A DNA stretch of 38,981 nucleotides. Origin: a virus (Duplodnaviria > Caudoviricetes). Location of the stretch: IMG/VR virus record IMGVR_UViG_3300020043_003188, positions 1 through 38,981 of that record, one strand, 5' to 3'. Below the pieces are notes generated by a model. That model was not told where the DNA came from. It ran no database searches and saw only the letters and a list, made by a program, of their open reading frames with translations. Made by a program: the position numbers and the translations under genes. This document shows positions 1 to 21,045 of this stretch, in pieces. The stretch's first letter is position 1, and the number at the start of each line of letters is the position of its first letter.

Positions 1-112
1 GGTAGTAGAGAATAGCCGCATCAGCATCAATGTGCGCTGTTTCGGCATCGGATTTATCAACTTCAGCCAGCATTTGCATAGCTTCTTCAATCTGTCTTTG
101 GTTAGTTTGCAT
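1..112 (-). CDS. Partial hypothetical protein (allele of 5360-5548), runs off the contig end
   Basis: MQTNQRQIEEAMQMLAEVDKSDAETAHIDADAAILYY matches the N-terminus of 5360-5548. Confidence 0.8.
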   Translation of the reverse strand, partial: MQTNQRQIEEAMQMLAEVDKSDAETAHIDADAAILYY

Positions 113-296
113 CGTCGATTTTGTTTAGGTTGTTTAGTTGTTCCGCGATGTGCTTCCCCACCGCGATGGGATCGAACAAGGGCATTCCGTCCTTCATTAT
201 GTGTGGAATATATCCATCAGCGGCCCATAGGGCAACCACGGCAGGCGGAAGTTTCAATTCGTCTGCCATTTCGTGCAAGTCAAATAATCGTATCAT
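102..296 (-). CDS. Excisionase/MerR-like HTH protein (allele of 5176-5385)
   Basis: LFDLHEMADELKLPPAVVALWAADGYIP...GMPLFDP fits the HTH_17/Xis pattern; ATGA overlap with the upstream gene. Confidence 0.65.
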   Translation of the reverse strand: MIRLFDLHEMADELKLPPAVVALWAADGYIPHIMKDGMPLFDPIAVGKHIAEQLNNLNKIDDAN

Positions 297-652
297 GCTA
301 TTTTTTCTGTTTGGGTTTTCTCATTTTCGGGGACAGCTTCATTTATCAGCCGCTCCAGGACTAGCTTCACCTTGTCGGCAAATCCGTTGCTATGCTCGAT
401 GAGGAAGCGCACACGCTCCCGTGCATGGATGATCGCCCCGTGATGCCGGTCGAGCCTGTACCCCGTTTCCTGCAATGAATGGTTTTCGCTCCAGATGGTC
501 GCCACCAGTTGACGAGGGACAACCCATCGCGCAAAGCGTGAGCGGCAAAGGATCTGCTCTGGAGTGACGGCAAAGACCTCCGCCACTATGCGGACGAGGA
601 AAGCGAATTTGTCGGCCTCTGTGTCCTCGTAGAGTCTCCAGTTAACTTTCAT
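293..652 (-). CDS. Stand-alone DnaA C-terminal (domain IV)-like HTH protein
   Basis: VAEVFAVTPEQIL-RSR---VVPRQ---SLQETG--LDRHHGAIIHA follows the Bac_DnaA_C pattern; ATG at 652 (alternative GTG at 658). Confidence 0.8.
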   Translation of the reverse strand: MKVNWRLYEDTEADKFAFLVRIVAEVFAVTPEQILCRSRFARWVVPRQLVATIWSENHSLQETGYRLDRHHGAIIHARERVRFLIEHSNGFADKVKLVLERLINEAVPENEKTQTEKIA

Positions 653-1697: not shown

Positions 1698-1709
1698 GTT
1701 TTGTTTCGT

Positions 1710-1898
1710 TTAAGGTTTTTCCAAGACCCACGAGAAATCCTTTTCGCTTGGATCGTTTGGTTTAAGGCTCCAGCCAAAACATACCCTCCCCGGCAGGTTG
1801 CATCGAATAAGGGTGTTGCTTTTCGTATTGTTGGGTGATGCCTCAACCCAAAGGGCAAGGGCTTTTTGCATGTCGTTTGCGTTTGTTTCGGTTGTCAT
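1710..1898 (-). CDS. Hypothetical early protein
   Basis: Start moved to the ATG at 1898 (MTTETN...) after an A-rich leader. Confidence 0.65.
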   Translation of the reverse strand: MTTETNANDMQKALALWVEASPNNTKSNTLIRCNLPGRVCFGWSLKPNDPSEKDFSWVLEKP

Positions 1899-1923
1899 CG
1901 TTTTCGTTTCGTTTGTTTTTGTT

Positions 1924-2423: not shown

Positions 2424-2680
2424 GCGTCACCCCCTTTCACCTTGGCAATGACGGCAAGGGCGTTTTGCAAGTCATCATCGCTTGCCATTGGGTGCGTCAA
2501 ACTTTGCAATGCGGCGAGCATTTCGGGCGCGGCGGCAATCAAGCGGGCGTTTGCTCTCCATTCATCCGTCAACCCGTGGAGAATTTCCGCAACTTCCGTT
2601 CCGTCTTTACCGTAAATTGCCGGATTTCCGGCGCGTCTGCCTAAATGCCAAGGGCCGCTTGTGTGTGTGTCTGTTTTCAT
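2420..2680 (-). CDS. Conserved phage protein of the HTxGPW...ANARLIAAAPE family
   Basis: HTSGPW and ANARLIAAAPEML motifs, common in phage early regions; function unknown. Confidence 0.8.
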   Translation of the reverse strand: MKTDTHTSGPWHLGRRAGNPAIYGKDGTEVAEILHGLTDEWRANARLIAAAPEMLAALQSLTHPMASDDDLQNALAVIAKVKGGDA

Positions 2681-2684
2681 CGTT

Positions 2685-3077
2685 TCAAAGTGTCGTTTGT
2701 TTTTTAGGATTCATCGAATCCACAAGTTCGATGCAAAGGTTTATTTCTTCGACATAGCTTAAGCCGTCGAAGCCAAGTAGCTTCTCGTCCGCGCTTGTGG
2801 CTGCGGCCAGGGCCCATTCTTTCCCGTCTCTTATGCTCACGGATTTAAGACTTGCAAATCGCCCGTTTGAGACAATCACGGCGAAAACCTCATCGTTCCC
2901 ACGGTGCAATTTGATTGCCCTTGTGCCATGCTTTGCGGACTTGTGGCGCGTGAAGTACCCGAAAGCCGTTTTCCCGTTTATCGGGGTGAATAGCGTTTCG
3001 ACAAGGCCCGCTTTATCGGTAAAGACAAGGCCGCTTGGAGTGGTGAAGTGTGCAATCGTTTTTGTTTTTGTTTTCAT
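2685..3077 (-). CDS. Hypothetical early protein
   Basis: Start moved to the ATG at 3077 (MKTKTKTIAHF). Confidence 0.7.
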   Translation of the reverse strand: MKTKTKTIAHFTTPSGLVFTDKAGLVETLFTPINGKTAFGYFTRHKSAKHGTRAIKLHRGNDEVFAVIVSNGRFASLKSVSIRDGKEWALAAATSADEKLLGFDGLSYVEEINLCIELVDSMNPKKQTTL

Positions 3078-3096
3078 CGTTTCGGGTGGGTTAGGG

Positions 3097-4795: not shown

Positions 4796-4828
4796 GTATG
4801 GGGGGAGGGGGTCGACCGGCGAAAAGTT
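4796..4828. repeat. 33-bp element, putative terminal repeat or packaging site (copy 1)
   Basis: GTATGGGGGGAGGGGGTCGACCGGCGAAAAGTT is the exact reverse complement of 38846-38878. Confidence 0.9.
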
Positions 4829-5179
4829 AACTGGAAACTCTACGAGGACACGGAGGCCGACAAATTCGCTTTCCTCGTCCGCATAGTGGCGGAGGTCTTT
4901 TCTGTCACTCCAGAACAAATCCTTTGCCGCTCACGCTTTGCGCGATGGGTTGTCCCTCGTCAACTGGTGGCGACTATCTGGAGCGAAAATCACTCACTCC
5001 AAGAGACAGGCTATCGGCTCGACCGGCATCATGGAGCTATCATCCACGCAAGGGAGCGGGTGCGCTTCCTCATCGAGCATAGCAACGGATTCGCCGACAA
5101 GGTGAAGCTAGTCTTGGAGCGGCTGATAAATGAAGCTGTCCCCGAAAATGAGAAAACCCAAACAGAAAAAATCGCATGA
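4823..5179 (+). pseudogene. DnaA-C-like HTH gene, second allele, missing its ATG at the junction
   Basis: Reads KVNWKLYEDTEAD... from codon 2; the ATG is replaced by the 33-bp element. Probably an assembly or chimera truncation rather than real decay. Confidence 0.75.
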
Positions 5180-5385
5180 TACGACTATTTGACTTGCATG
5201 AAATGGCGGAAGAATTGAAACTGCCGCCAGCCGTGGTTGCCCTATGGGCCGCCGATGGCTACATACCACACATAATGAGGGACGGAATGCCCTTGTTTGA
5301 TCCCATCGCGGTGGGGAAGCACATCGCGGAACAACTAAACAACCTAAACAAAATCGACGATGCAAACGAACCAAAGACAGATTGA
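5176..5385 (+). CDS. Excisionase/MerR-like HTH protein
   Basis: Same protein as 102-296, 5 aa longer because of a TAA/GAA difference. Confidence 0.65.
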   Translation: MIRLFDLHEMAEELKLPPAVVALWAADGYIPHIMRDGMPLFDPIAVGKHIAEQLNNLNKIDDANEPKTD

Positions 5386-5548
5386 AGAAACTATGCAGAT
5401 GCTGGCTGAAGTTGACAAATCCGATGCCGAAACAGCGCACATTGATGCTGATGCGGCTATTCTCTACTACCTCAAGGTCACAGGCGCAAGGGAGCTTGCC
5501 GAGGCCTATGAGGATCTGAAACTCGAAGTGGGATTCCGCTTTGCCTAA
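5360..5548 (+). CDS. Hypothetical protein
   Basis: 62 aa; mostly synonymous differences against the other allele support coding. Confidence 0.8.
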   Translation: MQTNQRQIEETMQMLAEVDKSDAETAHIDADAAILYYLKVTGARELAEAYEDLKLEVGFRFA

Positions 5549-5567
5549 TCTGAAAACGAAACAAACT

Positions 5568-11912: not shown

Positions 11913-12059
11913 CCAACAACACCCCCGACGCCTCTTGACAATGCGCACCAATGGGGGTTACTTTTATCCTGTGCTAACCTACGCAGAAGTGGACACAATA
12001 TGTCCACATTTCTATAATGTGTAGCATTCTAGCGAATAAGTTGCCAGAATGTGTACTTA

Positions 12060-12287
12060 CTAGGCCAAGGAATACAGGTTGCTGGATCGCCCGTTGATCC
12101 TGCACCTGCGGAACTTTAGTATCCCGTCTGCGGATTTGTTGCGGAGGATTGACCCGGCGTGAGGTATGGACATTCTAGTTCTAGCGGCATACTCGGCCAC
12201 GGTGAACTCGTCTGGACTGCGTGGGTCCTCCTTGCCTATCAGTGCAATTGCTTTGTCCAGTGCGTCTAGTGCTTGTTTCGTTTTCAT
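12060..12287 (-). CDS. Putative winged-HTH protein
   Basis: FTVAEYAARTRMS...L------G-L---R------NLY. Confidence 0.55.
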   Translation of the reverse strand: MKTKQALDALDKAIALIGKEDPRSPDEFTVAEYAARTRMSIPHAGSILRNKSADGILKFRRCRINGRSSNLYSLA

Positions 12288-16998: not shown

Positions 16999-17279
16999 TA
17001 GACGGCGTTAGGGGAAAGTTCTGGGTGAAACTTCTGGAAGTCTCGGATAAACTCACGATCATGCCATGCATCTTCACCATATTTATTGCGGATTAGGAAA
17101 TACTCATGCGTGGGGACAACCGCAACGGCTCGGCCCAACGCACCAGTTTGTACTCCACGAAGGGTGTCGGCCTCTTGTGCTGCAGAAATCTCGCGGAATT
17201 TTTGTTTTGTTTCCATGAGCTGGCGACCAGAGCAAAGCTCCTTTACCAACGCATCGGTCATTGCCTCTTCAGATATCAT
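16998..17279 (-). CDS. Hypothetical post-capsid protein
   Basis: Start moved to the ATG at 17279; TAATG overlap. Confidence 0.7.
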   Translation of the reverse strand: MISEEAMTDALVKELCSGRQLMETKQKFREISAAQEADTLRGVQTGALGRAVAVVPTHEYFLIRNKYGEDAWHDREFIRDFQKFHPELSPNAV

Positions 17280-17291
17280 CGTTTGGTTTGG

Positions 17292-17329
17292 AAGAGAGCG
17301 GAGGATGGGGATAGAACCCACCCCCCGCT
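17292..17329 (-). terminator. Hairpin / weak terminator after the capsid genes
   Basis: AGCGGGGGGTGGG-7 nt-CCCATCCTCCGCT (13 bp, G-U pairs on the minus strand), then CTCTT. Confidence 0.55.
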
Positions 17330-17337
17330 GTCAGGGA

Positions 17338-17775
17338 TTAGGCAAAATTGCCGGGATCAAGGATCGTAAGGGCAATAATCCACTCACCAGCAGTCACGGT
17401 TCCCGTGAAGTTGGTTTCGATCACGATGGGCAGTGCGGATGCGCTGTTGTTAACCACACCATTGCCAGTGTTGGCATCTCCACCAACGGTGAACGAGGCA
17501 CCGGTGTTGAATGCGGCCTTGGTGAGTCCATCGAGGTCGAGTGAGTCGATGTACTCGTTTGGATCAGCAGTGGTGGTTCCGACATCGAGAAGGAGGTCGT
17601 TGGAGGTGCCAGCCGAAGTCACTTGCTCAAACACAGCAGCAGAAGTCACGATACCGCCAGGAGGCAGGATAGCGATGGTCTTTTGTGCGCCACTGCCAAG
17701 CGAGGTGATCTCGGCGGCAGTGAGCTTGTAGATGTCAGTGAAACCGTTGAAACGCTCTTGTTGTGCAACTTTCAT
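17338..17775 (-). CDS. Putative capsid decoration/cement protein
   Basis: 145-aa beta-rich protein directly after the MCP; LPPG-IV, L-VG motifs. Confidence 0.6.
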   Translation of the reverse strand: MKVAQQERFNGFTDIYKLTAAEITSLGSGAQKTIAILPPGGIVTSAAVFEQVTSAGTSNDLLLDVGTTTADPNEYIDSLDLDGLTKAAFNTGASFTVGGDANTGNGVVNNSASALPIVIETNFTGTVTAGEWIIALTILDPGNFA

Positions 17776-19901: not shown

Positions 19902-19930
19902 AGTCAAGCATTTAATCCTTACTAAGTCAA
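19902..19930 (-). promoter_or_regulatory. Probable promoter/operator of the scaffold-capsid operon
   Basis: Two TTGACT boxes 17 nt apart; no canonical -10. Confidence 0.4.
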
Positions 19931-20169: not shown

Positions 20170-20197
20170 TTGACGCAGGGTAAGAATGTGGTATTTT
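20170..20197 (+). promoter_or_regulatory. Sigma70-type promoter facing against the late genes
   Basis: TTGACG-16 nt-TATTTT with TGn. Confidence 0.55.
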
Positions 20198-20203
20198 GGC
20201 GTT

Positions 20204-20311
20204 GACGACGAAGTAGGATTCACGTCACCATTCACCCCTCCGGCGCGTAAAGCAATGGGTCTAGGGCTGGCACGAGTTTTCCTACTTCGACTCGTGCTGG
20301 CCCTTTGTTTT
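20204..20311 (+). ncRNA. Candidate structured RNA / attenuator with pseudoknot
   Basis: 15-bp stem 20263-20277/20290-20304 plus TTGTTTT; loop TCCTACTTCG is complementary to CGAAGTAGGA at 20209-20218. Confidence 0.6.
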
Positions 20312-20712
20312 ACCCAAAAAGCTGGTGACATATTCAAGCAACCGAGGAACGCTAAAACGACCGCACGGAAGCTAGGTAAAAATCTCACAAAGGTGCTGCC
20401 TGATGATCGACGAAGCAGCTTAATAAAGTGTGACGATTAGAGAGCTTGATGCCGCCAACTCACAACCTTCGGCTATCTCTAGTTCCAGTTTAGGCTGGTG
20501 TGCATGTCGTCCTTTCCGAAGAATATACGGGAGTTCTAAAAACACAGTTAATCCGTTATGGGCGAACTGTGTCTGCGAGCCTTCCTCGAATGCCGGGAGC
20601 TACCCTTAATACTAAATTAGCACAAATTAGTACTAAATAAGTAAAGTGTAAGTCAACTTAACGGTAGGTAATACTATACGCCATTGAAGTAGTAAGTAAT
20701 ACTTACGAGTTC

Positions 20713-20753
20713 AAAAGAAACGCCCTCGGCAGGGTTTTAATCTACCGAGGGCG
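20713..20753 (-). terminator. Rho-independent terminator
   Basis: CGCCCTCGGTAG-9 nt-CTGCCGAGGGCG-TTTCTTTT. Confidence 0.85.
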
Positions 20754-20811
20754 AGAACCCAAACTAAACGATGATAAACGAAACAAAACGCACCAACCGA
20801 AGTTGAATGCG
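20713..20811 (-). ncRNA. Candidate trans-acting antisense sRNA
   Basis: c(UUCG)g hairpin, 35-nt U-rich linker, 12-bp terminator with U tract; TTGACA at 20840-20845. Confidence 0.65.
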
Positions 20812-20841
20812 AGAAAGAGCTAGACTATTCTAGCGGGTTTG

Positions 20842-21045
20842 TCAAGCTAAGACTGAGAGTAGCTCATCCAGCGTAGAGATGCTTCCTGCGAGCTTCATCA
20901 CATCATTCGATGTCTCTGCTTGACGGAAATCACCAAAGAACCTCTCACGCTCATCGTGGATGAACTGAAGGATAGCGGCGTATTCCTCTCGGTCACGGAG
21001 GGCTTCTACTGCTACTTGGATGCTTGGTTTCGGTATTGGTGTCAT
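20842..21045 (-). CDS. Small conserved-type protein between portal and scaffold
   Basis: Start moved to the ATG at 21045 (MTPIPKP); helical, G-I--LDELL ending. Confidence 0.65.
   Translation of the reverse strand: MTPIPKPSIQVAVEALRDREEYAAILQFIHDERERFFGDFRQAETSNDVMKLAGSISTLDELLSVLA

What the first reader, a model, noticed from the sequence alone, without database searches (positions are those of the whole stretch)
20713..20845. Candidate ~100-nt phage sRNA complementary to the start regions of many of the phage's own genes
Seen, on the minus strand: TTGACA (20840-20845; the -10 TAGCTC is imperfect), a c(UUCG)g hairpin (20789-20811), a 35-nt linker UUUUGUUUCGUUUAUCAUCGUUUAGUUUGGGUUCU containing an anti-AUG, and a 12-bp terminator. 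G-U pairs in both stems fix the strand. Linker complementarity to mRNA starts: 15/15 directly upstream of the ATG at 1697 (1698-1712); 20/22 across the ATG at 1898 (1882-1903); 17/18 across the ATG at 17279 (17274-17291); 12/12 just upstream of the SSAP ATG (5554-5565); 11 nt plus 4 more after a 1-nt bulge at the 12287 start (12273-12287); 9 nt across the ATGs at 2680 and 3077. The targets are mostly A-rich, SD-less starts, and genes coupled by GGAGG/ATGA are not matched. Inference: a late-expressed multi-target translational repressor that shuts off early and recombination genes, and perhaps host mRNAs. I know of no described family for it.
Basis: partly seen in the sequence, partly recalled or inferred. 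Interest (0 to 1): 0.85.

Follow-up and report, generated by a model that had tools for sequence, protein, structure and literature searches.

The report
Phage RNA mirroring gene start sites
A large group of uncultured phages keeps a promoter-hairpin-terminator cassette whose unpaired U/G-rich middle is the mirror image of typical gene start sites, so it likely makes a ~100-base RNA that would block translation of many messages at once, though no transcript or repression has been shown.

Summary
The element is real and conserved. On the minus strand: TTGACA over a stop codon, 17-nt spacer, -10-like box, UUCG hairpin, open 35-nt U/G linker, terminator. All seven listed matches verify and beat shuffles (top-7: 0/1000 mono, 1/1000 dinucleotide). 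The same layout lies behind the homologous gene in 156 of 161 phage loci. Stems and loops are swapped freely, and 55 of 56 terminator stems favour this strand. Across 41 linker clusters, CAU is enriched and the reverse complement reads like a start site. Opposite-strand ORFs are not conserved. A second, unrelated phage lineage has a similar cassette. Limits: linker-target covariation is clear in only two clades, much of the start enrichment is compositional, no transcript was found, and the host is unproven. Best reading: a GcvB-like multi-target repressor of SD-less starts that spares head genes. No Rfam hit. The scan noted analogous anti-start RNAs in three other phages but nothing like this sequence.

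The parts
20840..20845 (-). -35 box TTGACA, overlapping the TGA stop of the upstream 67-aa gene (21045-20842)
   Evidence: over the stop in 111 of 140 records with TTGAC(A/T), and kept behind inserted ORFs in 26
20816..20822 (-). -10-like box after a 17-nt low-information spacer (non-canonical, TA-N4-T here, TTTA-N-T in most clades); function inferred
   Evidence: same class as the scaffold promoter
20789..20811 (-). 5' hairpin with UUCG loop; replaced in relatives by unrelated stems with GAAA, GCAA, GCGA loops or longer stems
20754..20788 (-). 35-nt single-stranded U/G-rich anti-start linker with one CAU (most clade A relatives have two)
20712..20753 (-). intrinsic terminator: 12-bp stem 20753-20721 plus U tail
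1882..1903 (-). predicted target: start at 1898 (early leftward operon), net -22.5 kcal/mol
3060..3092 (-). predicted target: start at 3077, net -22.0
17274..17291 (-). predicted target: start at 17279, just behind the hairpin that follows the capsid operon, net -21.0; no allele-level covariation in relatives
   Evidence: against:
5554..5565 (+). predicted target: leader of the RecT-like annealing protein gene (ATG 5568), net -16.1
12273..12287 (-). predicted target: start of a 75-aa protein with weak winged-helix similarity; top-3 target in 9 of 19 genomes
1698..1712 (-). predicted target: leader of the gene at 1697, net -12.8
2677..2685 (-). predicted target: start at 2680, net -12.9
19902..19930 (-). 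scaffold-capsid promoter candidate (TTGACT, 17 nt, TTGACT), same class as the element's promoter

Best explanation
The cassette likely encodes a ~100-nt non-coding RNA, probably made with the head genes, whose open U/G-rich linker is predicted to pair across the A/C-rich leader and AUG of many SD-less messages and would block ribosome entry. Shown: the layout, its strand, its conservation, the lack of a conserved ORF, and complementarity beyond shuffles. Inferred: transcription, late timing, repression. U and G each pair with two bases, so the tract works as a degenerate mirror of the consensus start (A-A-A-C-N-AUG-A-A/C-A-C-A-A). Its modules are gained and lost between relatives. In this phage the predicted set is about 16 starts, 12 of them early, recombination or small regulatory genes. 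Capsid, scaffold, portal and large terminase starts escape. The likely job is to damp early and accessory translation during particle assembly. Messages of the host or of co-infecting relatives with the same start style would be hit too.
For: Layout in 156 of 161 loci, 93 distinct elements (the 5 misses end 53-298 nt into the extracted stretch). Predicted length 62-109 nt. Strand: 55 of 56 stems more stable, G-U pairs 110 vs 6, U in the 8 nt after the stem 6.0 vs 1.25. Linkers: 41 clusters, U+G 75%, CAU 47 vs 8.8 (mono) and 33.9 (dinucleotide), 0/2000 each; 30 of 41 carry a CAU. U+G before this terminator 0.74 (n=14) vs 0.51 before other terminator-like hairpins (n=24). Window statistics. Net energy of -12 or better at 12 of 33 early and 4 of 30 late starts; head genes about -3 or weaker. 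Reciprocal clade match: the window linker scores z 3.8 on its own starts and -1.1 to 0.1 on clade B; clade B linkers score 1.3-3.5 on B and -0.3 to 0.4 on A. In clade B, two linker substitutions are mirrored by two in the TerS 5' region in every record that holds both. A second lineage with lambda-like head genes has the same promoter class, a fast-changing CAU-bearing tract and a terminator in 7 of 8 loci. Precedent: GcvB R1 (PMC3879156, passages).
Against: No transcript: only contigs were available, and the one confirmed RNA run holding nearby sequence does not cover the element. No cognate preference in 10 of 17 linkers; cognate z is below 1 in 6 of 17. Shuffled linkers also land in start windows (22 of 72 hits vs 48 of 106 real; windows are 4.3% of sequence), and also favour non-late genes (20 of 25 genomes vs 19 of 25 real). 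No allele tracking at the 17279 target in clade A. The clade B compensation is one split between two alleles. The winged-helix-like target was picked after the fact and ranks outside the top 10% in 10 of 19 genomes. The -10 box is non-canonical. The accessibility-corrected energies had no shuffle control.
Confidence: 0.6

Rival explanations
1. Same RNA and same pairing, but the selected targets lie outside the phage: host messages (translational takeover) or early genes of superinfecting relatives. Matches to its own genes are a by-product of a shared start style.
For: Several linkers match other phages' starts as well as or better than their own: the G037 linker scores z 5.3 on G002 and 0.3 on itself, and G038 and G044 score high nearly everywhere. 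The linker consensus is a generic start. Verrucomicrobiae are SD-scarce (PMC10783764, passages), and an endolysin look-alike cluster is mostly Verrucomicrobiota (lead only).
Against: Clade A/B reciprocity and the TerS compensation point to own-gene targets. No host genome could be reached.
Confidence: 0.2
2. The unit is a terminator and 3' UTR for the terminase-portal operon. The U/G tract binds a protein or nuclease (S1, RNase, Nus factor), or attenuates read-through, with no trans pairing.
For: It sits right at an operon end. In the second lineage the terminator lies about 20 nt before the next head gene with no promoter seen between, and some tracts fold onto the downstream leader. About a quarter of linker clusters lack CAU (11 of 41).
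Against: A promoter-like -35/-10 pair is kept behind inserted ORFs. CAU enrichment survives dinucleotide shuffles. In the window the linker pairs poorly with the next start (scaffold, -6.1), which has its own promoter.
Confidence: 0.14
3. The plus strand is the meaningful one: a decayed gene start, micro-ORF or ribosome decoy behind a hairpin, like the hairpin-plus-leader starts seen elsewhere in these phages.
For: Real starts directly behind hairpins occur in these genomes. Some relatives carry a convergent sigma-factor-like gene whose read-through would cover the tract.
Against: Opposite-strand ORFs run from 2 to over 40 codons in all frames with no shared peptide. G-U pairs, U tails, stable tetraloops and the promoter all point the other way.
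Confidence: 0.06

Closest known systems
GcvB sRNA, R1 region (PMC3879156, passages read; PMC2837412, passages)
   Same: An unstructured GU-rich stretch pairs with CA-rich elements at or beside ribosome binding sites of many mRNAs. ACA motifs are translation enhancers and are frequent in the predicted targets here.
   Different: GcvB is a chromosomal regulator of amino-acid uptake genes in enteric bacteria with a conserved R1 sequence. This element is phage-borne, has a variable modular tract and carries anti-AUG triplets. No Rfam hit.
S. aureus RNAIII, E. coli CyaR (PMC2837412, passages) and M. tuberculosis 6C sRNA (PMC6486639, abstract only)
   Same: A degenerate element aimed at a general feature of start sites gives many targets.
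   Different: They use C-rich loops (anti-SD in RNAIII and CyaR). This one mirrors the A/C-rich leader and AUG of SD-less starts, and SD-led starts are predicted to escape.
Phage antisense RNAs P1/P7 c4, P22 sar and sas, lambda OOP, PreS, VpdS (review PMC12197685, parts 1-4 of 6 read)
   Same: Phage-encoded small RNAs that act by base pairing, some by covering a ribosome binding site.
   Different: As described in that review they have one or a few specific targets, or act through Hfq competition. None is described as mirroring the consensus start of many genes. The review's supplementary table of 38 unassigned sRNAs was not read.

Membership tests
GcvB | match to the curated RNA family model | tested here: not met
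   no Rfam hit at the element in the window or in 16 relatives' loci
GcvB | unstructured GU-rich pairing region | tested here: met
   linker mostly unpaired; U+G 75% in 41 clusters
GcvB | targets are CA-rich elements at ribosome binding sites | tested here: met
   in silico only:
GcvB | regulon of host amino-acid transport genes, Hfq-assisted (Hfq dependence recalled) | not testable with these tools
   host genome not reached
trans-acting base-pairing sRNA (class) | own promoter and intrinsic terminator | tested here: met
   by conservation only:
trans-acting base-pairing sRNA (class) | no conserved coding frame | tested here: met
   opposite-strand ORFs unconserved; linker indels of varied length
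trans-acting base-pairing sRNA (class) | discrete transcript | tested here: inconclusive
   only contigs, little coverage
trans-acting base-pairing sRNA (class) | seed-target covariation | tested here: inconclusive
   present in clades A and B; absent in 10 of 17 linkers and at 17279
trans-acting base-pairing sRNA (class) | pairing-dependent repression | not testable with these tools
   needs reporters
P1/P7 c4 antisense RNA | family model match and an antirepressor target downstream | tested here: not met
   no Rfam hit; no antirepressor among 40 proteins scanned

The most novel reading that the evidence does not exclude
A phage RNA that mimics, in antisense, the consensus start site of an SD-poor host and acts as a general brake on translation initiation. 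It would shut down host and competitor messages while the phage's own head genes escape through different, more structured leaders. The design appears in at least two unrelated phage lineages.
Probability: 0.3. Interest if true: 0.9.

Novelty: new variant of a known kind. Interest (0 to 1): 0.76.

Why it matters
Phage sRNAs in the review read have narrow targets. An RNA that targets the start-site consensus itself would be an RNA-only route to the early-to-late switch or to host takeover. It would also read out what defines a strong start in SD-poor bacteria such as Verrucomicrobiota, where initiation is poorly understood. The family is large (93 distinct alleles here) and modular, and it offers natural compensatory pairs, so it can be tested with simple reporters.

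Tried and rejected
Expression: 8 runs listed, none holding half the words. Runs laid on the window and on L028 gave contigs only; parts without cover prove nothing. One contig in a probably-DNA run matches 20735-20846 and then diverges, which fits a cassette boundary at the -35 box. Host: the capsid scan of genome contigs found nothing. The terminase scan hit a 3-kb contig in a Nanopelagicaceae MAG, likely misbinned: the 40 of 72 called starts printed from 80 kb of that MAG did not look A/C-rich, judged by eye. RecT homologue and cluster look-ups gave no organisms. Phage C75C1 is syntenic but has no element in its 55-nt gap before the scaffold gene and no host on record. An exact 24-mer of the linker found no other contig, and a double-CAU-plus-stem pattern found none. 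Most of the 68 hits lack a terminator and look like chance; part of that output was cut. One search used a mis-registered structure string and is discarded; one search gives the consensus pairs (3 of 9 with changes on both sides). The shuffle run timed out and was redone with my own approximate duplex scorer. My gene caller recovered 53 of 63 curated starts and missed some starts in relatives, which blunts. A lambda boxA/boxB reading (recalled motif) was dropped because the GCTCTTT stretch is not conserved. The only PDB hit for the winged-helix-like family was a PPR repeat protein with no passing stretch, ignored. Literature searches for a like RNA returned nothing matching, judged from listings.

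Full report
Setting. The window is a whole 38,981-base virus record, rated complete. Recombination and replication genes (RecT-like, exonuclease VIII, resolvase, DnaC-like) lie at 5.5-11.9 kb, and a long minus-strand packaging and virion region has the major head gene at 17.8-18.8 kb. The element sits at the end of the terminase-portal unit, upstream of the scaffold-capsid unit. The host is unknown. The only lead is an endolysin look-alike cluster that is mostly Verrucomicrobiota, a group reported as SD-scarce (PMC10783764, passages).

Observation. The reported parts are present at the stated places. The listed matches verify, and the seven best non-self ungapped hits in the genome fall at six gene starts. 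On 63 curated starts the top-7 mean score is reached by 0/1000 mononucleotide, 1/1000 dinucleotide and 4/1000 CAU-keeping shuffles. So a subset of starts is matched, not all. With opening costs, 16 starts reach -12 kcal/mol or better: 12 of 33 early and 4 of 30 late. Capsid, scaffold, portal and large terminase lie at -1.5 to -3.2, and all 8 SD-led starts at -7 or weaker (no shuffle control).

Conservation. I took the best 80 of 113 and the best 80 of 356 loci encoding the upstream protein. With the window that makes 161 records and 115 distinct downstream sequences. A promoter-like box plus terminator was found in 156, giving 93 distinct elements; the 5 misses are cut short. Of 140 with TTGAC(A/T), 111 have it over the stop codon and 26 keep it behind an inserted ORF, so it is not a by-product of the stop. 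Clade B appears to use a box inside the gene. In 25 promoter clusters the 17-nt spacer has low information and a -10-like box follows. The scaffold-capsid promoters look the same, which is the basis for inferring late timing. The 5' hairpin is swapped between unrelated stems with UUCG (22 of 93), GAAA (6), GCAA (4), GCGA (2) or other loops. Of 56 distinct terminator stems, 55 are more stable on this strand, with 110 vs 6 G-U pairs and U tails on this side only.

The linker. In 41 clusters below 80% identity, the 30 nt before the terminator are 49% U and 26% G. CAU occurs 47 times against 8.8 and 33.9 in mono- and dinucleotide shuffles (0/2000 each), and 30 of 41 clusters carry one. The reverse complement around these triplets reads A-A-A-C-N-AUG-A-A/C-A-C-A-A, a start-site consensus (compare called starts). 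Relatives differ by gain and loss of whole anti-start modules. Other terminator-like hairpins in these genomes are not preceded by such tracts on average (0.51, n=24, vs 0.74, n=14), and some of the high ones are real starts read backwards. Frames on the opposite strand run from 2 to over 40 codons with no common peptide, which rejects a micro-ORF.

Whose starts? In a 17-linker by 21-genome matrix, clades A and B prefer their own starts reciprocally (7 of 7 linkers). The other 10 show no preference, 6 of 17 have cognate z below 1, and some match foreign phages best. In clade B, two substitutions in the hairpin loop are mirrored in the TerS 5' coding region in every record holding both, and the winged-helix-like start shifts the same way; this is a single split. 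Clade A shows no such tracking at the 17279 start. The best-paired families overall are RecT, TerS, the 12060-12287 family and the 2420-2680 family. Capsid, head closure and the 17338-17775 family are among the worst. The 12060-12287 start ranks in the top 3 in 9 of 19 genomes from four groups; its protein has only weak helix-turn-helix hits in 2 of 17 members. Genome-wide, 48 of 106 strong matches fall in start windows covering 4.3% of sequence, but shuffles give 22 of 72. Composition therefore does much of the work and order adds about twofold. That composition is itself conserved, so this weakens 'tuned to own genes' more than 'anti-start RNA'.

Second lineage. A pattern scan found record G032, with a portal, head protease and capsid of lambda-like order and no match to the window's capsid. 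In 7 of 8 loci it has TTGACA, a TTAGCT box, a CAU-bearing U/G tract that changes while the protease stays 95-100% identical, and a terminator. There the unit overlaps the protease gene end and precedes the next head gene closely, so an attenuator role is possible.

Mechanism and comparison. The most likely reading is a ~100-nt RNA with a protective 5' hairpin, an open degenerate anti-start tract and a terminator. It would pair over leader and AUG and exclude the 30S subunit (inferred from established sRNA behaviour). It works like GcvB's GU-rich R1 on CA-rich enhancers (PMC3879156) but is not a GcvB member: there is no Rfam hit. The phage sRNA review read in parts 1-4 of 6 (PMC12197685; supplement unread) describes nothing of this design, and searches listed none. 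Earlier scan notes describe analogous anti-leader RNAs in three other phages (unchecked), and none matches this sequence.

Verdict. A real, conserved, undescribed RNA cassette with good comparative support for anti-start pairing. It has no expression or functional proof, and it is open whether the main targets are the phage's own genes, the host's or a competitor's. Interest 0.76; new variant of a known kind.

Noticed in passing
window 20170-20605 (+): Promoter-like TTGACG-16-TATTTT with TG, followed by about 400 nt of hairpins including a long stem with U tail near 20262-20310, converging on the element; partly conserved in G001-G003. Whole-region fold z only -1.6. An RNA-run contig covers 20406-20599 (not proof of transcription). 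Possible second non-coding RNA.
   Followed up: partly
window 1-649 and 4823-5471: 649-nt inverted duplication, 94% complementary, holding a DnaA-C-like HTH gene; could be a chimeric assembly or a real rearrangement.
   Followed up: partly
window 11922-11958 (+): Rfam abiF RNA hit just over the cut-off (37.5 vs 37), overlapping a TTGACA-18-TACTTT promoter-like site after the DnaC-like gene.
   Followed up: no
L007 4313-4804 (-); similar DNA after the terminator in L008, L011, L018, L039, L042: Some relatives carry a convergent gene with sigma-factor similarity ending at the element's terminator; absent from the window.
   Followed up: partly
L007 3986-4174 and others: Variable Met/Gly/Pro-rich small ORFs inserted between the upstream gene and the cassette in 26 records; no PHROG hit for the one scanned.
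   Followed up: no
promoters of the element and scaffold gene across relatives: The -10 boxes are consistently non-canonical (TT-N-A-N-T or TA-N4-T after 17 nt); may mark a host-specific or phage-activated promoter class.
   Followed up: partly
window 17296-17330 (-): Conserved hairpin between the capsid operon and the 17279 gene; the best late target site lies right behind it.
   Followed up: no
L330-L336 (record G032 and kin): Unrelated phage lineage with a similar promoter-tract-terminator unit inside its head operon.
   Followed up: partly
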